A stretch of DNA of 64,000 nucleotides, taken from NCBI GenBank assembly GCA_963764715.1, contig CAVXTP010000006.1, positions 320,001-384,000 of the forward strand, written 5' to 3'. Positions 1 through 9,969 of the stretch are shown here, piece by piece. Source of the stretch: an uncultured Acidobacteriota bacterium. GTDB lineage: Bacteria; Acidobacteriota; Thermoanaerobaculia; UBA5066; Gp7-AA6. A program made the translations under genes and the position numbers. The stretch's first letter is position 1, and every line of letters starts with the position of its first letter. The notes under the pieces were generated by a model. The model searched no databases. It saw only the letters and a program-made list of their open reading frames with translations, and was not told where the DNA came from.

Positions 1-2
1 AC

Positions 3-800
3 TGGCCCTACGGCGAGGATGCCATGGCCACCCTCAACCAGCACCTCAGCTTCCAGGGCATGGAAAGAAACGACGCCACCCACCAGTACTACGACCACGC
101 ACGGTCGCAGCAGTTCAATATCGGAAGGTTCCTGAGTACGGATCCGTACCACGGCTCAATTGAGGAGCCCGCAACTTGGAACCGATATTGCTTCGCGCTG
201 GGTAACCCCATTCGATACACAGATCCTGACGGCCTCAACTCCGATGATGAGCCGAACGATGACTTGCCCAAGAGCGCTTGCTTGGCAAACCCTCAGGCTT
301 GTGGTGCGGAGGCTTCAATAGAAGAATTCGTAAACGTGTCAGGTACCGGCCCAACGGGGGTTGAAATTATCCAGCAGGGCACGGAGGCGGCCGCTCCGGT
401 GGTCTTCCCACTCTTTAACGGGACGATGTTCTTCGCGTCGACTGCCACTGGCAACATGGAGATAACAGCAGGTCTGCGCCTATTCCGGTCAGTAGGATCC
501 GCATGGAATGCATTCCGAACCGCAAGACCCGCACTTCCGTTTAAGCGGGACCTCGCGACCAAGGTTCAAGAAGCTATCGACCGAGCGCTCTCGAGGTCAC
601 CGCGCTTCTCCAAGGACGGGACAACCTTTCGCAATGATCAGGGCCTTCTACCTCAGCGGGGAACCGGCTACTACTCGGAGTGGACGGTCGAACCAGCGCC
701 GGGGTCACCAGGGCGAGGTACTGAGAGGCTCGTCGTTGGGTCAGACGGCGACATCTACTACACTCACAACCACTATGGCTCCTTCGTAAGGATCAAATGA
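3..800 (+). CDS. Rhs toxin C-terminal part (runs off window start) with RNase Sa/barnase-like toxin domain
   Basis: Frame open from position 3 (WPYGED...). Rhs core GRFLSTDP...NPIRYTDPDGL, then FRNDQGLLP..YYSEWTV..RGTERLVVGSDGDIYYTHNHY, matching microbial guanyl-specific RNases. Confidence 0.9.
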   Translation, partial: WPYGEDAMATLNQHLSFQGMERNDATHQYYDHARSQQFNIGRFLSTDPYHGSIEEPATWNRYCFALGNPIRYTDPDGLNSDDEPNDDLPKSACLANPQACGAEASIEEFVNVSGTGPTGVEIIQQGTEAAAPVVFPLFNGTMFFASTATGNMEITAGLRLFRSVGSAWNAFRTARPALPFKRDLATKVQEAIDRALSRSPRFSKDGTTFRNDQGLLPQRGTGYYSEWTVEPAPGSPGRGTERLVVGSDGDIYYTHNHYGSFVRIK

Positions 801-1327
801 CGCTGGAATCCAGAGGTCACCTCACTAAATTGACCGGGTGCATGATGCATCTCGTCACTGCAAGATCCCGGCGGCTCCGTGAGCTAATGCGCGCGGCGGC
901 CGATCTGGGCTTTTTACGGATCGACCTGGATGTGGCCGGCGTTGGAGACAAGGAGACACTACAGTCACTTGTGGCTCAGTCCTTTCGGTTTCCTCCTGAG
1001 CTAGGAACAAACTGGGACGCCTTACTCGACTCGCTTCGCGATTTGTCATGGTTGAAGGCACCCGGCTACATGATCGTTGTGCGCGGCGGCGATCGTGTCG
1101 CGCGGGTTTGCCCCGAGCTTGTCGAAAGACTGTTCCCGATACTGGCGCAGGCACAAGAAGACTGGAGACTCGAGCGCGTCCCTTTCCATGTAGTCGTCGA
1201 GACTGGCGGTCCTGTGGCGTCCGTTCTCGAGCAGACAGACCTCCGAGTTTCACGGCCAGGCGAGTACCCCCTGTCTCGATTGAGGATTATCTGTGATGAC
1301 CGAGTAGCTGATTCTGGCGGGACGTAA
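797..1327 (+). CDS. Barstar-family immunity protein
   Basis: FRFPPELGTNWDALLDSLRDLSWL barstar signature; ATGA overlap with the RNase toxin stop. Confidence 0.9.
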   Translation: MTLESRGHLTKLTGCMMHLVTARSRRLRELMRAAADLGFLRIDLDVAGVGDKETLQSLVAQSFRFPPELGTNWDALLDSLRDLSWLKAPGYMIVVRGGDRVARVCPELVERLFPILAQAQEDWRLERVPFHVVVETGGPVASVLEQTDLRVSRPGEYPLSRLRIICDDRVADSGGT

Positions 1328-1354
1328 GGATATGGGACGTTGTGGGGACCTCGT

Positions 1355-1382
1355 GGGGTCAACCGTGTAAGCCTGTATTGGC
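1355..1382 (+). repeat. Degenerate copy of 28-bp Rhs junction motif
   Basis: GGGGTCAACCGTGTAAGCCTGTATTGGC. Confidence 0.75.
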
Positions 1383-1418
1383 TGCAGAGTCGAAGGGCAC
1401 TCGAGCTTGCAAGCTTCT

Positions 1419-1446
1419 GGGGTCGATCGTGTAATCCTGTATTGCC
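1419..1446 (+). repeat. 28-bp Rhs junction motif
   Basis: GGGGTCGATCGTGTAATCCTGTATTGCC about 20 bp before Rhs homology begins; 1413-1524 recurs at 4449-4560 with 4 mismatches. Confidence 0.9.
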
Positions 1447-1464
1447 AGCGGAGTCGGTGAGCGC

Positions 1465-3738
1465 GGCGACCTGACGACGATCCAGTCCTGGACCTACGAC
1501 ACGACGAACTGTCACCTCGGCCTGATTTGCTCGGAGAGCTACCCGCGCATTTCCGGGACTTTCCCGGTTAACTACACCTACTCCTTCGGGCAGCCCACGG
1601 CGATCACCGCGGGGACGAGCCCCGTCAACCTCGTCACCTCGGCGGCCTACAACCCCGCCGCGGGCCTGGCCTCCTGGGTCTCGGCCAGCAGCCCCACGGT
1701 CACGACGACGATCACACAGGACACGAGCCTTCTACCCCGGCCCAACAAGATCGAGGCCAAACGTGGAACGACCGTCCTCTTCTCGACCGGCGCGTACACG
1801 TACGACTCGGCGGGCAACATCCTCTCCCAGGCCGACGGGACCTACGGCGGCACCTATACCTACGACAAGGGCTCGAGGCTGCTCTCGGCAACCTACTCCG
1901 GTACCCCCCGCACCTTCGCCTACGACGGCTACGGCAACCTCACGCAAAACGGCGCCTACACGATGGCGATGAACGCGTCCCTGAACAACCAGGTCGATAG
2001 CGTGACCATCAGCGGCGGTTCGCCGATCGCCACCGCTTACGACCCCCGGGGCAACATGACGGGGGCCGTGGGCGAGGTGATCTTCTTCGACGCGCTCGAC
2101 CGGGTCTACCGCAGCAAGAACGATCTCGTCGGCGACTACACGTTCCTCCACAACGGCGCCGGGGAGCGGGTCCTGAAGTTCTCCTCCAAGTTCACCGTCC
2201 TGCGCCGCGAGATGGCACGCTACATCGCCGAGGCCAACATCATCGCGCGGGGCTGGACCCTGCCTCTCTGCGACGGATTCAACCCTTCCCCCTTCACCGA
2301 CGTCCCCTGCTCGGACCCCGACGCCCGCCACATCAAGCTCGCGTTCCAGCAGGCGATCACCGCCGGCTGCACCGGCTCGACCTTCTGCCCCGACACCGCC
2401 ATCACCCGCACCCAGATGGCCGTATTCATGGTGAAAGGCTACCGCGGCGCCTCCTTCGTCCCCCAGTCCTGCCCGCCCGCGGTCAACCCGTTCACCGACT
2501 TCACTTGCTCCGGCCCCTACGCCGCGTATGCCCCGTTCATCATTCAGCTCTACAATGACCACGTGACCGGAGGCTGCGGCCTGAACACCTTCTGCCCCGG
2601 CGACCCCATCGGCGAATGGGAAACCCTCGTCTGGCTCGCCAAGGGCGGTCCCCCAAACGGCTCGGGCACCATCCCCTTCTGGCCCACCTATCACCCCGTC
2701 CCCCGCGGCTCGACCTACACCCTGCGCGACGAGGGCAACCGCGTCGTCACCGAGATCGCCGGGGGTCTGTCGGGCTCGGGCACGGCCTCGCTCAACGTCG
2801 CCCGGGACAACGTCTACCTCGGCGGCCTGCTCGTCGCCTCCAGCGCCGGCGCCTGGAGCTACTCGGCCTCCGATCACCTCGGCTCGATCCGGGCCGTCTG
2901 GAACGCCTCGGGGACCAAGACCGAGGACCACCGCTACTGGCCCTACGGCGAGGATGCGACGGCCACCCTCAACCAGCACCTCGCGTTCCAGGGCATGGAA
3001 AGAAACGACGCCACTAACCAGTACTACGACCATGCACGGACTCAGCAGTTCAATATCGGACGGTTCTTGAGTACGGATGTCATCGACGGCTACCCCGAAG
3101 AGCCAAGGAGTTGGAACCGGTACGTGTTCGGGTTTGATAACCCGATGGTCTACACCGACCCCCTCGGCCTCGAGCCGGACAACCCGAGCGGGCAGTCGAA
3201 GTCGGCGGGCGACAAACGTCTCGATCCTGGTTTCTTCTGCTTCTTCTTTCGCTGCCAATCAGATGTAACCGTCACGGGCCACGCAACTGGCTCAACTTGG
3301 AATCCTGGAGGTGGAGGCTTTCCGGGAACGACCGGGCGATTCACGCTCCGTGGGCTGGCACCCTTGGTGGACGGAGCCATACCATTTTCCGACCCTCTTG
3401 CGTTGGCCCATTGGTATGACCCGGATGACTTGGGTATGCACGAAAGTTACATAGCCGGCCTTGCCATCCAAGAGTCAGTCCTTGTCACCGCAACGGCAGA
3501 ACGGGCAGTAGTTGCAACCGCCGAGAGGGCCACACTGAATGCCTGGCGCATGCCGATAGGTAAGCGCGAAGGTAGCTTCATAACCGAGAATATCTTCCGT
3601 TGGGGCTCTCGGCCTTTCCGCCACTTCCATCTCGGGCCAAAGCGCCTCATGGGCCATCATTTACCTGGCGAACTGCGTACTTACCTCGGTCACGCGCGGG
3701 CGCTAATTATTCAGGCCTTGAAACGGTTGGGTTCGTGA
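1465..3738 (+). CDS. Orphan (5'-truncated) Rhs cassette 2: YD repeats, inserted SLH module, Rhs core, unknown C-terminal toxin
   Basis: Frame open from 1435 (after TAA 1432-1434), first ATG/GTG/TTG at 1963. [35 protein letters not shown]. Confidence 0.85.
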   Translation, partial: GDLTTIQSWTYDTTNCHLGLICSESYPRISGTFPVNYTYSFGQPTAITAGTSPVNLVTSAAYNPAAGLASWVSASSPTVTTTITQDTSLLPRPNKIEAKRGTTVLFSTGAYTYDSAGNILSQADGTYGGTYTYDKGSRLLSATYSGTPRTFAYDGYGNLTQNGAYTMAMNASLNNQVDSVTISGGSPIATAYDPRGNMTGAVGEVIFFDALDRVYRSKNDLVGDYTFLHNGAGERVLKFSSKFTVLRREMARYIAEANIIARGWTLPLCDGFNPSPFTDVPCSDPDARHIKLAFQQAITAGCTGSTFCPDTAITRTQMAVFMVKGYRGASFVPQSCPPAVNPFTDFTCSGPYAAYAPFIIQLYNDHVTGGCGLNTFCPGDPIGEWETLVWLAKGGPPNGSGTIPFWPTYHPVPRGSTYTLRDEGNRVVTEIAGGLSGSGTASLNVARDNVYLGGLLVASSAGAWSYSASDHLGSIRAVWNASGTKTEDHRYWPYGEDATATLNQHLAFQGMERNDATNQYYDHARTQQFNIGRFLSTDVIDGYPEEPRSWNRYVFGFDNPMVYTDPLGLEPDNPSGQSKSAGDKRLDPGFFCFFFRCQSDVTVTGHATGSTWNPGGGGFPGTTGRFTLRGLAPLVDGAIPFSDPLALAHWYDPDDLGMHESYIAGLAIQESVLVTATAERAVVATAERATLNAWRMPIGKREGSFITENIFRWGSRPFRHFHLGPKRLMGHHLPGELRTYLGHARALIIQALKRLGS
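1474..3078 (+). repeat. ~1.6-kb near-identical direct repeat of the Rhs body (second copy 4933-6536)
   Basis: Nucleotide identity with offset 3459; identity drops after GRFLSTD. Confidence 0.95.
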
Positions 3739-4343
3739 CTCTCCGGTACCTTACCTTCTGGAATCGGCTTGAACCCGGGTGTGACCCCCGGCCGGACGAG
3801 GATGAGTGGCCTGATGCCCGACCGAGTTTCGCCTCGGAAACGTGGCCTTTGATCGAAACGAAACGCGCATCGATTACAGGTCTCTATTATTGGAATCGAC
3901 GGGGGGAGAGCTCGCTGCTCAGCGGGCTCGCCTCATCGGGAACATCGGTTCCAGGATTTCTACGACTCATAAACCTTGTCGAAATGGATTCTGCTGCCCT
4001 AGATCGAGTCTTCACAGCAGCGGACGGCGACATGGAGGTTTTTTTCGAGACGGATGACCAGTGGTTCCTGCGAGCCTTGTGCGCCCTGTGGCCACGACCC
4101 GGTATCTTGCGCGTTGGCAGGGAAAGACTGGGTCGCCTCACCGAAGCAGAGGTTGAGACCCTCGGCCGCGCCGTTTCCGCGATCCCGGCTGACCGTGCCT
4201 GGTTCTCACTTAACGATGAAGGATGGTTGCTCTACGTTTTCGGTTCTCAGGGACTGCTTACCTGGGCACAGCAAAGCAAGGGTCGTCGCGAGCAAGCCGA
4301 TAGCCGGAGCTGGTCGTTGAAGCCCGAGCCCGAGACCCAATAG
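3735..4343 (+). CDS. Putative immunity protein of cassette 2 (unknown family)
   Basis: GTG at 3735 overlaps the toxin stop (GTGA); sits directly after the toxin; lower-GC look. Confidence 0.7.
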   Translation: MTLRYLTFWNRLEPGCDPRPDEDEWPDARPSFASETWPLIETKRASITGLYYWNRRGESSLLSGLASSGTSVPGFLRLINLVEMDSAALDRVFTAADGDMEVFFETDDQWFLRALCALWPRPGILRVGRERLGRLTEAEVETLGRAVSAIPADRAWFSLNDEGWLLYVFGSQGLLTWAQQSKGRREQADSRSWSLKPEPETQ

Positions 4344-4454
4344 GATTCAGACACCAGGTAGGAATCGATTCCAAGACCAGGCTGGCGGGCAGTCGATACG
4401 GCCGCCCGCAAAGGCAACCTCATGCCACGACGACGCAGTCCTGGATGAGCTTCT

Positions 4455-4482
4455 GGGGTCGATCGTGCAATCCTGTATTGCC
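4455..4482 (+). repeat. 28-bp Rhs junction motif followed by a 60-bp abortive Rhs stub (4501-4560)
   Basis: GGGGTCGATCGTGCAATCCTGTATTGCC. Confidence 0.9.
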
Positions 4483-4645
4483 AGCGGAGTCGGTGAGCGC
4501 GGCGACCTGACGACGACGCAGTCCTGGACCTACGGCACGACGAACTGTCACCTCGGCCTGTAAGGCGGCCTAACGCGAAGCGCCTCAAGCTGATCGTCCA
4601 ACAGGAAATGACCGCCACCGCACTGGTTCGGTCTTCCGTCGCGGC

Positions 4646-4860
4646 ACCGGCATCACCCGCGCCCAGCTGGCCGTGTTTCGGAGCCAACGACCCACGGCTC
4701 GATCCGAATGTCGATGTCCTAGCATCGGTGTCGGCGACTAGGGTTCGAATTCGCTTCCGACGTCGGATCCAGCATGAGCGGATGCCATTCGCGATAATCG
4801 CGTTATCGTCCCGAATGCTCCGACCATGACCGATCGCGCCTCGTTCAACCGGATCTGCAC
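4646..4860 (+). repeat. Diverged duplicate of 8347-8552 (upstream region and first 35 nt of the 8518 gene)
   Basis: ATGACCGATCGCGCCTCGTTCAACCGGATCTGCAC identical at 4826-4860 and 8518-8552; CACGGCTCGATCCGAATGT shared upstream. Confidence 0.85.
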
Positions 4861-4866
4861 GGGGAT

Positions 4867-7229
4867 TTGGGGGGTCAATCGTGTAATCCTGTATTGCCAG
4901 CATACCCGGTCGGCAACGGCAACCTCGCGGCTACGACGATCCAGTCCTGGACCTACGACACGACGAACTGTCACCTCGGCCTGATTTGCTCGGAGAGCTA
5001 CCCGCGCATCTCGGGGACCTTCCCGGTCAACTACACCTACTCCTTCGGGCAGCCCACGGCGATCACCGCGGGGACGAGCCCCGTCAACCTCGTCACCTCG
5101 GCGGCCTACAACCCCGCCGCGGGCCTGGCCTCCTGGGTCTCGGCCAGCAGCCCCACGGTCACGACGACGATCACACAGGACACGAGCCTTCTACCCCGGC
5201 CCAACAAGATCGAGGCCAAACGTGGAACGACCGTCCTCTTCTCGACCGGCGCGTACACGTACGACTCGGCGGGCAACATCCTCTCCCAGGCCGACGGGAC
5301 CTACGGCGGCACCTATACCTACGACAAGGGCTCGAGGCTGCTCTCGGCAACCTACTCCGGTACCCCCCGCACCTTCGCCTACGACGGCTACGGCAACCTC
5401 ACGCAAAACGGCGCCTACACGATGGCGATGAACGCGTCCCTGAACAACCAGGTCGATAGCGTGACCATCAGCGGCGGTTCGCCGATCGCCACCGCTTACG
5501 ACCCCCGGGGCAACATGACGGGGGCCGTGGGCGAGGTGATCTTCTTCGACGCGCTCGACCGGGTCTACCGCAGCAAGAACGATCTCGTCGGCGACTACAC
5601 GTTCCTCCACAACGGCGCCGGGGAGCGGGTCCTGAAGTTCTCCTCCAAGTTCACCGTCCTGCGCCGCGAGATGGCACGCTACATCGCCGAGGCCAACATC
5701 ATCGCGCGGGGCTGGACCCTGCCTCTTTGCGACGGATCCAACCCTTCGCCCTTTACCGACGTCCCCTGCTCGGACCCCGACGCCCGCCACATCAAGCTCG
5801 CGTTCCAGCAGTCGATCACAGCCGGCTGCACCGGCTCGACCTTCTGCCCCGACACCGCCATCACCCGCGCTCAGATGGCCGTCTTCATGGTCAAGGGCTA
5901 CCGCGGCGCCTCCTTCGTCCCCCAGTCCTGCCCGCCCGCGGTCAACCCGTTCACCGACTTCACTTGCTCCGGCCCCTACGCCGCGTATGCCCCGTTCATC
6001 ATTCAGCTCTACAATGACCACGTGACCGGAGGCTGCGGCCTGAACACCTTCTGCCCCGGCGACCCCATCGGCGAATGGGAAACCCTCGTCTGGCTCGCCA
6101 AGGGCGGTCCCCCAAACGGCTCGGGCACCATCCCCTTCTGGCCCACCTATCACCCCGTCCCCCGCGGCTCGACCTACACCCTGCGCGACGAGGGCAACCG
6201 CGTCGTCACCGAGATCGCCGGGGGCCTCTCGGGATCGAGCACCGCCTCACTCACCGTCGCCCGGGACAACGTGTATCTCGGCGGCCTGCTCGTCGCCTCC
6301 AGCGCCGGCGCCTGGAGCTACTCGGCCTCCGATCACCTCGGCTCGATCCGCGCCGTCTGGAACGCCTCGGGACGAAGACCGAGGACCACCGCTACTGGCC
6401 CTACGGCGAAGACGCCACGGCCACCCTCAACCAGCACCTCAGCTTCCAGAGCATGGAAAGAAACGACGCCACCCACCAGTACTACGACCACGCACGGACA
6501 CAGCAGTTCAATATCGGACGGTTCTTGAGCACGGATCTGCTACGAGGCACCCCGGCAAGCCCTTCGTCTTGGAACCTCTACACATTCGCACTCAACAATC
6601 CTGTGAGGCTTACAGATCCCGACGGACTAGAGGCCGACAATCCGAGCGGCCACTCGAGTCTAATGGGTCGATTCTTCTCGTGGGTATCGCGAACCTTCAA
6701 GAGCTTCTTTCCCGGACCACGCCAGCTTTCACCAGGCGATCCGAACGCGGAAGCGATGAATGACGAAACGGTTGGCAATACGCCCTCGCAAGTCAATCGG
6801 ATGGCCAACCCCGGCGGCGTTGCTCAAAGCGGCATCCTCGAGGGCGGGGCCACTGTCACGGCAGCGGGAGCAACAGCAGTTGCAGTCATCATTGTCGACC
6901 GTGCGACGGGGAAAGTCATCGAAGTTCTCGCGGACACCGCGAGCGTAGCTGCCAAGATCCTCTCGGCAGAGCGAGTTGACTCCGGCCTGAAAGCGGATGC
7001 CCTGCACAGGGCGGCGAGCTTCGTGAGCCGCGAGCAACTCGAGGCAGGGACTGCGTTCAGAATCACGGGCCGCGACGGCGCCGAGGTTACTCTTCTTCAA
7101 ACTCCGGGGGGCGGGAACGGACGATCTGGGATTTACGAATACGTCTTGGAGCGAAGCGGTGTTGTGTCCCATCAACGGTTCATTCCGGGTGGGACCATCA
7201 CAGGTTACCCGAATCAGGTGGTGAGGTAA
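4867..7229 (+). CDS. Orphan Rhs cassette 3 with SLH insert and polymorphic C-terminal toxin; 1-nt frameshift at ~6370
   Basis: ORFs 4867-6528 and 6075-7229 join at a GGG vs GGGG difference from copy 2. Core [12 protein letters not shown]; CT motifs HRAASF and [24 protein letters not shown]. Confidence 0.85.
4871..4898 (+). repeat. 28-bp Rhs junction motif
   Basis: GGGGTCAATCGTGTAATCCTGTATTGCC immediately before Rhs cassette 3. Confidence 0.9.
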
Positions 7230-7234
7230 GGTTC

Positions 7235-7753
7235 ATGGACGTGGTCCGCTTGTGGATTCCGTACGGTTTCATCCGCAATAGAGTCCGGATGACCTGGCGT
7301 GAGATCCTGTTTGGCCTGGATGAGGAACTATTAGACCCTTCCGCTCCGACGCATCTCGCGACCGACATAGTGGATGAGGCGAATTCGCCCGATTCGAGGC
7401 TGGTTGATCTCGCCGGATTGAGCGCCCACCAGGATGCCCGTCCGTACGTCGAGGCCTTGGCCGCGCGCGAGCCGGAGGAGCCTCTGCCAGAAATCAAGGC
7501 GAAATGGCTTTGCGTGTCGTTGGCCTGGCTTTACGAGCGCAGGAACGAGTACGAAGACCCCCTGCGCGAAGTCGCAAAGGTCTACGCCGACTTCGATTAC
7601 CCGGAGCGGATTGCGAGCTTCGTGCACTACATGCCCATGGACGAACCGGACCTCGGCAGTCGCGAGCTCAATGAAGCACGTCTCTACCAGAAATGGAAAG
7701 ATTACCTAGACGATTGCTGGAGTGAGCACGCGCGCCATCTTGGGACACGTTGA
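7235..7753 (+). CDS. DUF2247-family immunity protein
   Basis: KWLCVSLAWLYERR..DPL..V..VYADFDYPERIASFVHYMP motif. Confidence 0.8.
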   Translation: MDVVRLWIPYGFIRNRVRMTWREILFGLDEELLDPSAPTHLATDIVDEANSPDSRLVDLAGLSAHQDARPYVEALAAREPEEPLPEIKAKWLCVSLAWLYERRNEYEDPLREVAKVYADFDYPERIASFVHYMPMDEPDLGSRELNEARLYQKWKDYLDDCWSEHARHLGTR

Positions 7754-7775
7754 AACCTGGGTCGGACCTTCAATT

Positions 7776-8299
7776 CCCCCCGCAGCTTCGCCTACGACGG
7801 CTACGGCAACCTCACGCAACACGGCGCCTACACCATGGCGATGAATTCTTCCCTCAACAACCAGGTCGACACCGTCACGATCGCCGGGACGCCGCCGACC
7901 GTGATCGCCACCGCCTACGACTCCCGGGGCAACATGACCGGGGCCGTGGGCGAAGTGATCTTCTTCGACTCACTCGACCGGGTCTACCGCAGCAAGAACG
8001 ACCTCGTGGGCGACTACACGTTCCTCCACAACGGCGCCGGGGAGCGGATCCTGAAGTTCCCCTCCAAGTTCTCCGTCCTGCGCCGCGAGATGGCCCGCTA
8101 CATCGCCGAGGCCAACATCATCGCCAGAGGCTGGACCCTGCCTCTCTGCGACGGATCCAACCCTTCCCCCTTCACCGACGTCCCCTGCTCGGACCCCGAC
8201 GCCCGCCACATCAAGCTCGCGTTCCAGCAGGCGATCACCGCCAGCTGCACCGGCTCGACCTTCTGCCCCGACACCGCCATCACCCGCGCTCAGATGGCC
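7776..8299 (+). pseudogene. Internal Rhs/SLH fragment from a diverged allele, truncated at a junction motif
   Basis: Starts at [11 protein letters not shown] and ends at ITRAQMA; has a 2-aa indel and substitutions relative to copies 2/3. Confidence 0.85.
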
Positions 8300-8302
8300 T
8301 CT

Positions 8303-8330
8303 GGGGTCGATCGTGTAATCCTGGATTGCC
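8303..8330 (+). repeat. 28-bp Rhs junction motif at the right end of the array
   Basis: GGGGTCGATCGTGTAATCCTGGATTGCC, 3 nt after Rhs homology ends. Confidence 0.9.
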
Positions 8331-8517
8331 GCCGCAGTCGGTGAGCGCGCCCAGCCGTGTTTCGGAGTCAACGACTCACGGGGACGACTCACGGCTCGAT
8401 CCGAATGTTGACGTCTTGGCGTCGGTATCGAAGGACGAGAGTTAGGACTCGCTTCCGACGGCCGGACCCAGCGTAGGCGGCTGCACGCAATCGGTTATCG
8501 TCTCGACTAACTGGGCC

Positions 8518-9969
8518 ATGACCGATCGCGCCTCGTTCAACCGGATCTGCACCTGCGTCGCCGTCTCGGCGGCGGCGGTCCTGCTGTCTCTTCAGTTGCT
8601 GGTCCCCCCGATCGTCGGCCTCGCGAACGAGGGAGATTTCGAGCGGGTGATGGGTTACGCGGGCCTTTTCTACCCGACCGACAAGTTCGAGGAGAAGTAC
8701 TACGGCCACATCGTCACCAAGTTCAACGTCGTCGCGCCGGGCTGGTACGCGAGCGGTTACCTGACGACCGAAACGCTCGTCGCGTATTCCGCGCGGCTCG
8801 TCAGCCTCGCCCTCTTCCCGGGCCGCATGTTCGACATCCGGATTTTCGCCGCGATACAAATGCTGCTGCTGCTGACAGCCCTCGGCCTCTTCGTGCGGGC
8901 CTGTCGGGACCTGGCGCCGGCGGCGCAGGCGGCGGTCGCCGTTCTTCTCGTCCTGATCTTCACGGACGTCGGGTATGCGGCGGCAATCAACTCGTTTTAC
9001 CCTCAGACGGCGTCGCTGCTCTTCATTCTCCTCACGCTCGCGTTCGCTGCCGTGGGCATTCGGATGGTTCGGCTTCGCGGCCCTGCGGTCGTTGGGTATT
9101 TCGTCTCCGCGGCGCTCTTCGTCTGTTCAAAACCCCAGGAGGCCATCCACGCTCCCCTCCTCGGCGGGCTGGGCGTAATTCTGGCGATCGCGGGGCAAAG
9201 CGAGACCGGGTCTTCGCGCCGCGTTGTCGTTGCGATCGCGCTCGCCGTGGCGCTCGGCGCCCTCGGCCTCTGGTATTACCGGCAGGTGCCGAAAGTCAGC
9301 ATTCGTTATGTCGGTCTCTTCCACACGGTTTTCCACGAGCTCCTCCAGAATTCGCCCGATCCACGCCGCGACATGGAGGAGCTCGGCATCGCACCGGACC
9401 TCGACCGGTACATCGGCGTGCACGCCTACATGAAAGAGTCTCCGATCGAGGACCCGGCCTTCCAGGCTCGATTCTTCGATCACTTCGGCTATGCGAAGGT
9501 GATGGGTTTCTACCTGCGGCATCCGGACCGGCTCCTCGATCGCCTGCGGCGGGCGGCTCCCGGGGCGTTCCGGCTGCGCCCGAAGTACCTGGGCAACTTC
9601 GAGAAGGCGACGGGGGTTGCGCCTCGGACCAAGGCCACTCGGTTCGCGCTGTGGAGCGACGTCCGGGCGAAGCTCGAAAGGCACGCGGCCGTGACGCTGG
9701 TCGTCTTCTTCGTCGGAAACCTTCTCGCCGCGGCACTTTCCTGGCGAGGCACAACAATGCGCGGCCGCCTCTTTCTCGTGGCTCTGGTGGCCTGTCTGCT
9801 CATTGCCGGCGTCGAATTCGGCGTCAACGCGTTCGCGGATGCGCTCGATGATCTGGGTCGCCACCTTTTCGTGTTCGACGCGCTCTGCGATCTCGTGCTC
9901 GTCGCGGACGTGGCCTGGCTGATCCAGTGGCTCGCGACGCGGCGCGCGCTGTCGCCGCGCTCGGCATGA
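8518..9969 (+). CDS. Polytopic membrane protein, WsfD-like (GT-C fold) glycosyltransferase
   Basis: PPIVGLANEGDFERV first-loop motif, DVGY..NSFY, SKPQ, many TM helices. Confidence 0.65.
   Translation: MTDRASFNRICTCVAVSAAAVLLSLQLLVPPIVGLANEGDFERVMGYAGLFYPTDKFEEKYYGHIVTKFNVVAPGWYASGYLTTETLVAYSARLVSLALFPGRMFDIRIFAAIQMLLLLTALGLFVRACRDLAPAAQAAVAVLLVLIFTDVGYAAAINSFYPQTASLLFILLTLAFAAVGIRMVRLRGPAVVGYFVSAALFVCSKPQEAIHAPLLGGLGVILAIAGQSETGSSRRVVVAIALAVALGALGLWYYRQVPKVSIRYVGLFHTVFHELLQNSPDPRRDMEELGIAPDLDRYIGVHAYMKESPIEDPAFQARFFDHFGYAKVMGFYLRHPDRLLDRLRRAAPGAFRLRPKYLGNFEKATGVAPRTKATRFALWSDVRAKLERHAAVTLVVFFVGNLLAAALSWRGTTMRGRLFLVALVACLLIAGVEFGVNAFADALDDLGRHLFVFDALCDLVLVADVAWLIQWLATRRALSPRSA

What the first reader, a model, noticed from the sequence alone, without database searches (positions are those of the whole stretch)
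1355..8330. A 28-bp GGGGTC motif marks the junctions of the Rhs array: candidate site-specific toxin-shuffling system
Seen: GGGGTC-RATCGTGTAATCCTGTATTGCC occurs five times in the same orientation (1355, 1419, 4455, 4871, 8303); I did not see it elsewhere in the 64 kb. It lies ~20 bp before the start of Rhs homology (1419, 4455, 4871) and 3 bp after its end (8303, cutting an SLH repeat at ITRAQMA). It contains an 8-bp tandem sub-repeat (ATCGTGTA/ATCCTGTA), and three copies are followed by AGTCGGTGAGCGCG. A related TGGGTCGGACCTTCAATT (7758-7775) precedes the fourth fragment, and GGGAC stubs follow immunity genes (1334, 1345, 7742). Inference: these are recognition or cleavage sites for a trans-acting enzyme that copies and pastes Rhs segments. 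From memory (unverified), short GGGGTC-led repeats accompany some RAYT/HUH Y1 nucleases, which makes one a plausible driver. No recombinase is encoded in this window.
Basis: partly seen in the sequence, partly recalled or inferred. Interest (0 to 1): 0.88.

Follow-up and report, generated by a model that had tools for sequence, protein, structure and literature searches.

The report
Transposon ends mark toxin-array junctions
The repeated 28-base tag is the end sequence of a little-studied family of single-strand transposons, and in this group of bacteria it keeps turning up at the seams between spare toxin–antidote cassettes, which suggests these ends help build or reshuffle the cell's antibacterial toxin arsenal.

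Summary
In detail: five same-strand copies in the window, eight in the whole Rhs locus. The motif is not a new site. It is a terminal inverted repeat (TIR) of the TIRYT/TIRtron family of Y1 HUH transposases (Di Nocera 2013; Quentin 2018 subclass 2.1). The same subfamily brackets a ~320-aa TIRYT gene in 8 related genomes. That cognate enzyme was not found in this assembly, which holds three other TIRYTs.

The Rhs link looks unreported. All eight copies have different outer flanks (≤11 bp shared). In this family 10 of 11 Rhs arrays carry a TIR versus 4 of 50 single Rhs loci, nearly always on the sense strand. A distant genome repeats the pattern with a different TIR and enzyme.

Limits: 62 of 68 loci of this subfamily lie away from Rhs, six of the eight local copies share one inner junction, and 0 of 19 orphan starts in other lineages carry a TIR. 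No cutting activity has been shown.

Best reading: TIRYT ends act as break-and-join points behind immunity genes, while homologous recombination swaps the toxin tips. It is lineage-restricted, not a dedicated universal shuffler.

The parts
1355..1382 (+). TIRYT-type TIR (subfamily D, diverged), 27 bp behind the barstar-like immunity gene, preceded by GGGAC stubs at 1334 and 1345
   Evidence: PWM score 35
1419..1446 (+). TIR-D leading an Rhs orphan module
   Evidence: PWM 37
4455..4482 (+). TIR-D leading an abortive module (Rhs aa ~1280-1305 only)
   Evidence: PWM 35
4871..4898 (+). TIR-D leading an Rhs orphan; its outer side abuts a copy of downstream host DNA
   Evidence: PWM 41
8303..8330 (+). 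TIR-D at the array end; its outer side is joined into Rhs SLH coding sequence (aa ~1604)
   Evidence: PWM 31
7758..7775 (+). Truncated, degenerate TIR (not subfamily D), 4 bp behind the DUF2247 immunity gene and directly abutting Rhs homology at aa ~1432
   Evidence: 18-column PWM score 10.1; 32 sites of 8.7 million in the reversed genome reach it
1..800 (+). 3' part of an Rhs orphan with barnase-like RNase tip (PF00545); this module starts upstream at C6:319463 without a TIR
797..1327 (+). Barstar-family immunity gene (PF01337)
1474..3738 (+). Rhs orphan: fragment 98% identical to the parent from aa ~1289, Rhs core, unclassified tip
   Evidence: TIGR03696
3600..4343 (+). Putative immunity ORF (longest reading; no family match)
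   Evidence: role inferred from position
4491..4860 (+). Mosaic: short Rhs piece, SLH remnant (4597-4677), then a 74% copy of 8346-8552 that includes the first 35 bp of the flanking host gene and ends at the next TIR
4907..7229 (+). Rhs orphan (96% to the parent from aa ~1280; reading frame broken near 6370), Rhs core, unclassified tip
7235..7753 (+). DUF2247 putative immunity gene
7776..8299 (+). Tipless Rhs fragment (aa ~1432-1604) bounded by TIRs on both sides
8518..9969 (+). Flanking host gene, WsfD-like glycan transferase (NF051875); marks the array end

Best explanation
The motif is a solo TIR of a TIRYT (Y1 HUH transposase with a C-terminal DnaA-like helix-turn-helix) [shown by sequence]. 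TIRYT elements and their solo ends accumulate just behind Rhs toxin-immunity pairs on the sense strand [shown as an association]. The enzyme, acting in trans, probably binds the TG-N6-TG repeats, nicks single-stranded DNA close to the TIR and religates it to another nicked site [inferred by analogy with TnpA-REP]. That gives the 3' end of a toxin-immunity cassette a non-homologous joining point, while its 5' end recombines through the long Rhs homology by the ordinary route [inferred]. Joins on the inner side create TIR-led orphans at new Rhs positions. Joins within ~10 bp of the outer G-run reconnect an existing TIR-Rhs block to new immunity tails, to Rhs DNA or to flanking host DNA, giving the deletions, abortive modules and duplications seen. 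In this genome the cognate enzyme was not found, so this array is probably a fossil of earlier activity or was imported.
For: Identity: inverted TIR-D pairs flank 9 TIRYT genes in 8 genomes. These 9 form one clade (100/98) sister to this genome's C6:495317 enzyme. HUH, Y-x3-NP and the HTH are present. A PWM trained without Rhs copies scores 7 of 8 at 31-41, against 1 hit ≥16 in the reversed genome. Breakpoints: all 28 pairs of local copies share ≤11 bp on the outer side, whereas passive duplicates elsewhere keep 143-275 bp. The outer side is joined to immunity tails, to Rhs coding sequence at two sites and to the host wsfD-like gene. Recurrence: 6 of 68 TIR-D loci lie ≤3 kb behind an Rhs core versus 0.08 expected. 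Starting from Rhs cores, 25 TIR clusters fall in 215 kb of post-core DNA versus 0 in 292 kb of flanking control. Arrays 10 of 11 versus singles 4 of 50; last-core zone only 9 of 11 versus 4 of 50, Fisher p 2e-6; orientation 16 sense to 2 antisense. Only 6 of 32 non-Rhs solo TIRs here have that polarity. Independent junctions: G032 has TIRs of two subfamilies abutting different Rhs positions, and G303 (another class) shows the pattern with its own GGGGACAG TIR and enzyme. Mechanistic precedent: TnpA-REP cuts at a distance from its site and recombines strands in vitro (PMC3333891, passages).
Against: No TIRYT has been assayed in the papers I saw, and no rearranged reads were seen. The cognate enzyme was not found in this 96.8%-complete assembly. 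Six of 8 local copies share one inner junction, and shared derived bases point to one local ancestor. Two local joins show 5-6 bp near-microhomology (read). One of five orphans here and one of five in G032 array b have no TIR, and G062, G063 and G096 have internal orphans without one. 62 of 68 TIR-D loci are away from Rhs. Outside the family only 3 of 36 orphan starts carry the motif, and 0 of 19 in TIRYT-positive genomes of other lineages. Two orphans have a TIR in the opposite polarity (L112; L226). Kin are not independent, so the p-values overstate.
Confidence: 0.55

Rival explanations
1. Hot-spot passenger. TIRYT elements land or are tolerated in the AT-rich, fast-turnover DNA behind immunity genes. 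Later RecA-dependent and microhomology-mediated events use the short TIR copies or delete up to them. The enzyme put the TIRs there but does not catalyse cassette joining.
For: Whole TIRtrons and dimers also sit behind Rhs-immunity pairs without leading any orphan (L101, L126, L149; L225, L280, L243, L232; Y1 genes at the end of 3 of 20 arrays). Some duplicates are plainly passive. The cognate enzyme was not found here. Homologous recombination is the standard orphan model (PMC3150448, passages). Earlier scan notes read similar TIR clusters as orphan ends (unchecked).
Against: It does not readily explain 8 different outer flanks ending within 11 bp, the 16:2 polarity, or arrays 10 of 11 versus 1 of 13 single loci in the same array-bearing genomes (counted by hand). 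I saw no TIR interrupting contiguous Rhs sequence in this locus.
Confidence: 0.3
2. Dedicated, domesticated cassette system. The TIR is an integron-like attachment site maintained for Rhs tip exchange.
For: Near-universal presence in the family's arrays, fixed polarity, an independent case in G303 and TIRYT genes next to Rhs loci across phyla (6 of 80 loci versus about 0.6 expected).
Against: Most TIRs are elsewhere, subfamilies are mixed within arrays, there is no linked or conserved enzyme, and it is absent at orphan starts in most lineages.
Confidence: 0.1
3. Selection for expression. A sense-oriented TIR supplies or protects a promoter for orphan and immunity genes, so such junctions are kept.
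For: The fixed polarity. The left TIR of a TIRtron sits upstream of its gene in the same sense.
Against: 0 sigma-70-like sites in window 1-9000. Several TIRs lead abortive or tipless modules or face non-Rhs DNA.
Confidence: 0.05

Closest known systems
TIRtron / TIRYT and their solo, dimeric and clustered TIR families (Di Nocera, De Gregorio & Rocco 2013, PMC3733652; TnpA-REP subclass 2.1 of Quentin et al. 2018, PMC6006769)
   Same: GGGGWSAS-type end, non-palindromic, inverted pair around a Y1 gene with a DnaA_C-like HTH, overlap with the gene's 3' end, solo/dimer/cluster forms, several enzyme-specific families per genome.
   Different: Quentin 2018 holds 0 occurrences of 'Rhs'. The passages of Di Nocera 2013 that I read mention no toxin arrays. 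Here the TIRs structure a toxin cassette array.
E. coli TnpA-REP / REP-BIME (Ton-Hoang et al. 2012, PMC3333891)
   Same: Same enzyme class (HUH, Y-x3-NP). Mosaic tandem arrays that start at the repeat (G303).
   Different: The motif forms no hairpin and has no GTAG tag. The enzyme has an extra HTH. Cleavage has not been measured.
Classical Rhs/CDI orphan toxin-immunity arrays (Poole et al. 2011, PMC3150448)
   Same: Full-length parent followed by core-tip-immunity orphans with near-identical core fragments.
   Different: The published model invokes recombination between conserved coding sequence. No dedicated non-coding junction element appears in the passages read.
Subclass 2.1 TnpA-REP beside prochlorosin genes (Laurenceau et al., bioRxiv 10.1101/2020.03.09.984088)
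   Same: Same enzyme subclass, proposed to diversify a hypervariable gene family.
   Different: Based on gene proximity, and the authors' later note finds no strong evidence for or against causality. Here the evidence is at base-pair junctions, and the cargo is Rhs.
Integron attC cassette arrays (recalled, not from a call)
   Same: Directly repeated sites between exchangeable gene cassettes.
   Different: No imperfect palindrome. The associated enzyme is an HUH nuclease, not a tyrosine integrase. Not every cassette has a site.

Membership tests
TIRYT/TIRtron TIR | End motif GGGG[AT][CG]A[CG] | tested here: met
   Subfamily reads GGGGTCAA/GGGGTCGA and other families here GGGGTCAG; positions 1-6 fit, positions 7-8 vary (consensus)
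TIRYT/TIRtron TIR | Same repeat flanks a Y1 gene as an inverted pair | tested here: met
   9 elements in 8 relatives; not in this genome for this subfamily
TIRYT/TIRtron TIR | Enzyme has HUH, catalytic Tyr in Y-x3-NP context and a C-terminal DnaA_C-like HTH | tested here: met
   the cognate from G075 scores 79.6 against the NF047646 cut-off of 80, with a weak DnaA C-terminal match
TIRYT/TIRtron TIR | Occurs as solo copies, dimers and clusters | tested here: met
TIRYT/TIRtron TIR | Bound and cleaved by the cognate enzyme | not testable with these tools
   Needs an in vitro assay; none reported in the papers seen
REP (GTAG/CGTC) / REPIN | Palindromic hairpin with a terminal tag | tested here: not met
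   MFE 0 to -1.1 kcal/mol, z -0.4 to +1.0; no tag in the sequence
Rhs orphan array | Full-length Rhs followed by core-tip-immunity fragments | tested here: met
Composite TIR element around the Rhs locus | Inverted TIR closing the locus | tested here: not met
   No minus-strand hit ≥10 in C6:309000-329300
Integron-like dedicated cassette system | Site at every cassette junction and confined to cassettes | tested here: not met
Integron-like dedicated cassette system | Linked tyrosine integrase | not tested
   No integrase search was run
DDE insertion-sequence end | Target-site duplication | tested here: inconclusive
   None seen by eye in the 15-bp flanks of five TIRtrons; no empty-site comparison

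The most novel reading that the evidence does not exclude
TIRYT HUH transposases have been co-opted, at least twice within this phylum, as the joining enzyme that loads and reshuffles Rhs toxin-immunity cassettes, with the TIR acting as the 3' attachment site. This would supply a sequence-directed route to orphan arrays and a host function for an enzyme subclass with none assigned.
Probability: 0.3. Interest if true: 0.85.

Novelty: new variant of a known kind. Interest (0 to 1): 0.62.

Why it matters
How the non-homologous 3' end of a new toxin-immunity cassette gets joined into an Rhs array is not explained by homologous recombination alone. This locus links the two questions and supplies named enzyme-substrate pairs: cognate TIRYT and TIR-led arrays in one genome (G032, G045, G303). 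A direct nicking and strand-transfer test is therefore straightforward. If the link is only hot-spot passengers, it still identifies the motif and shows that TIRYT elements favour post-immunity DNA.

Tried and rejected
Motif as leftover Rhs coding sequence: rejected, the parent lacks it. Its reverse strand instead matches the last codons and stop of the cognate transposase. REP-type hairpin: rejected. Sigma-70 promoter: none found. Composite element around the locus: no closing TIR. Cognate enzyme in this genome: 5 PF01797 matches, three long TIRYTs each with another TIR, one short Y1 and one fragment. Universal Rhs device: not supported (3 of 36 and 0 of 19 orphan starts outside the family). 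G493 arrays carry a different repeated element instead (output partly cut). Sequencing runs: one low-share DNA run, no RNA holder listed. Its contigs showed no joints, and one 151-nt contig matched window 1341-1491 exactly; it may not be independent, so I use it as no evidence. A fuzzy-regex genome scan timed out and was replaced. Literature searches that found no report of TIRYT ends at Rhs junctions. These cover open-access PMC and bioRxiv only. Supplements and figures were not read; Di Nocera Fig. 9 lists TIR sequences and might include this subfamily. The mobilome preprint naming both RAYT and Rhs treats them separately (passages). Earlier-findings look-ups by place, by sequence and the first by words were empty. 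No structure prediction, complex prediction, or metagenome or viral scan was run.
Full report
Observation. The 21-nt core has 5 matches in the window at ≤3 mismatches, all on the + strand, with 0.00 expected. In the genome (4.36 Mb, 26 contigs, 96.8% complete; the window is C6:320001-384000) there are 8 copies at ≤6 mismatches, all within C6:316230-328330. The locus is a classical Rhs array: a 2036-aa parent with an SLH domain at C6:309670-315780, four complete orphan modules and several abortive ones. The tips include a barnase-like RNase with barstar, and another tip is followed by a DUF2247 gene. The parent lacks the motif. A match between the records places the phylum as Acidobacteriota (inference).

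What the motif is. PF01797 finds five Y1 matches in the genome, none in the window. The two fully assembled ~320-aa ones (C6:495317 and C7:33483) are each bracketed by an inverted GGGGTC-led repeat with the same TG-N6-TG anatomy; the third, on C4, shows one end before its contig stops. 81 such repeats in 49 clusters occur as solos, dimers and tandem runs. Quentin 2018 (abstract, passages and section 31 read) and Di Nocera 2013 (passages) describe exactly this: TIRYT enzymes, subclass 2.1, with an HTH tail and TIRs of consensus GGGGWSAS. The Rhs motif's subfamily (here called D) occurs in 28 of 104 other genomes of the family and in 0 of 70 from the two other families of the order; the reversed control gave 0 (the unpublished G086 counts only as a non-match). 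Inverted D pairs flank 9 TIRYT genes in 8 genomes, 50-57% identical to this genome's C6 enzyme. In a 24-row tree (truncated copies left out) these 9 form a 100/98 clade sister to that enzyme. HUH and Y-x3-NP are invariant in 6 of 6 aligned proteins. The 3' TIR encodes the enzyme's last residues and its stop. A matrix trained on 64 non-Rhs TIRs gives 86 hits ≥16 in the genome against 1 in the reversed genome, scores 7 of the 8 array copies at 31-41 and the eighth at 12.8, and finds a ninth copy (score 23) behind the genome's second Rhs on C22. The motif forms no hairpin.

Junction anatomy. Five of the eight copies lead Rhs homology from the same point (aa ~1280) and the 8303 copy carries the same linker, so that inner junction arose once. 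The outer side differs every time: all 28 pairs share ≤11 bp there. The outer neighbours are immunity tails, Rhs coding sequence cut at aa ~1335 and ~1604, a short Rhs remnant, another TIR's linker, and copies of the array's downstream flank, one of which runs 35 bp into the wsfD-like host gene. Passive duplicates in other arrays keep 143-275 bp of outer flank, so the test can see them. Four copies share 7-9 bp outside the G-run, and two joins show near-microhomology, so the breakpoint is near the TIR end and not exactly at it. The 7758 variant is a degenerate TIR abutting a second Rhs breakpoint (32 of 8.7 million null sites score as well). The orphan starting at C6:319463 has no TIR.

Recurrence in the family. 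Starting from Rhs, I fetched 60 regions from the core list: the clusters I could see, plus single loci mostly on long contigs, which is not the whole list. 15 of 60 have a TIR within 3 kb behind a core, giving 25 clusters in 214,592 bp against 0 in 291,773 bp of flanking control. Arrays carry a TIR in 10 of 11 cases and single loci in 4 of 50; for the last-core zone alone it is 9 of 11 against 4 of 50. One array count (L100) really belongs to a neighbouring opposite-strand Rhs. Three arrays were first met through the motif search; without these four it is 6 of 7. Single loci in the array-bearing genomes score 1 of 13 (counted by hand). One-orientation zones are 16 sense to 2 antisense, while only 6 of 32 non-Rhs solo TIRs here have that polarity by rough gene calls. 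In G032 array a every orphan is TIR-led. In array b four of five are, two of them by another subfamily abutting different Rhs positions (my automatic counts missed those two). G045 has two different junctions. In G062, G096, G106 and G108 the TIR or a whole TIRtron sits only at the array end. G032 and G045 also hold the cognate enzyme. Relatives are not independent, so the p-values overstate.

Beyond the family. At orphan homology starts a strict motif lay within 200 bp upstream in 12 of 51 cases on the sense strand and 1 of 51 antisense: 9 of 15 in the family and 3 of 36 outside. The outside signal is G303, from another class. Its distant 311-aa Y1 (two copies) is flanked by inverted AGAAGGGGACAG repeats, and the same motif precedes orphans at several different breakpoints in two arrays. 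It has 100 matches against 9 for the control, mostly in mosaic tandem arrays whose 15-334-bp units all start at the motif. Across phyla, 31 of 80 TIRYT loci show an inverted pair by a strict rule, and 6 of 80 have an Rhs core within 8 kb, against about 0.6 expected by hand arithmetic from 138 cores in ~203 Mb with a different profile. In four the enzyme closely follows an Rhs-immunity pair, and in one an orphan abuts the right TIR in the opposite polarity. But in 20 arrays from those genomes 0 of 19 orphan starts carry a TIR, although 3 of 20 end in a Y1 gene. So 'TIRYT behind Rhs-immunity' is broad, and 'TIR-led orphans' is lineage-restricted.

Mechanism. Shown: the identity of the repeat, its cognate enzyme clade, the breakpoint clustering and the associations. 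Inferred: TIRYT binds the TIR through its HTH and nicks and religates single-stranded DNA nearby, as E. coli TnpA-REP does at a distance from its REP (PMC3333891, passages). That would give a cassette's 3' end a joining point while Rhs homology serves the 5' end (the homologous route is in PMC3150448, passages). I put this at 0.55, hot-spot passengers at 0.30, a dedicated system at 0.10 and promoter selection at 0.05. The one public run laid gave no joints and is not used.

Novelty. The element is known, and two earlier scan notes reached the same identification in other genomes (seen after my own). I found no report of TIRYT ends at Rhs junctions (open-access library only, supplements unseen). 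The nearest precedent is the proximity of subclass 2.1 genes to prochlorosin genes, which its authors later qualified (first of two parts read). Bertels 2017 (passages) gave no direct lead. Verdict: a new variant of a known kind, interest 0.62.

Noticed in passing
G000:C10:58817-59884 (outside the window): An inverted TIR pair brackets a ketopantoate-reductase-like ORF (name from reading the sequence) in place of a transposase: a passenger-gene element.
   Followed up: no
G000:C4:21000-29595 (outside the window): About 15 TIRs of another subfamily, truncated TIRYT starts and four SLH-domain paralogues in tandem beside a TIRYT gene; a 692-bp, 97.8% duplicate starts just before a TIR. A second TIR-structured array.
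   Followed up: partly
L195-L198 (G303:C1:1416000-1496000): BIME-like mosaic arrays around a TIRYT gene; units of 15-334 bp all start at the TIR and end at variable points.
   Followed up: partly
L159-L161 (G493): Rhs arrays in which a different repeated element, starting TGTAGTCAAA, lies between modules; possibly another insertion-sequence end.
   Followed up: no
window 4658-4860 and 8346-8552: The array's downstream flank and the start of the wsfD-like gene are duplicated inside the array; a 204-bp block at 4560-4763 is 100% identical to C6:316496-316699.
   Followed up: yes
window 1963-3738, 6075-7229; L001:17252-19039: Orphan tips and two following ORFs with no Pfam match; the parent Rhs carries an SLH domain just before its core.
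   Followed up: no
L047 (G033:C3:746497-747970): A TIRtron with a duplicated 5' end and a run of tandem TIR units; similar truncated starts on G000 C4.
   Followed up: no
G000:C17:16419-16935 (outside the window): A short 172-aa Y1 gene amid REP-like palindromic repeats, unrelated to the TIR family.
   Followed up: no
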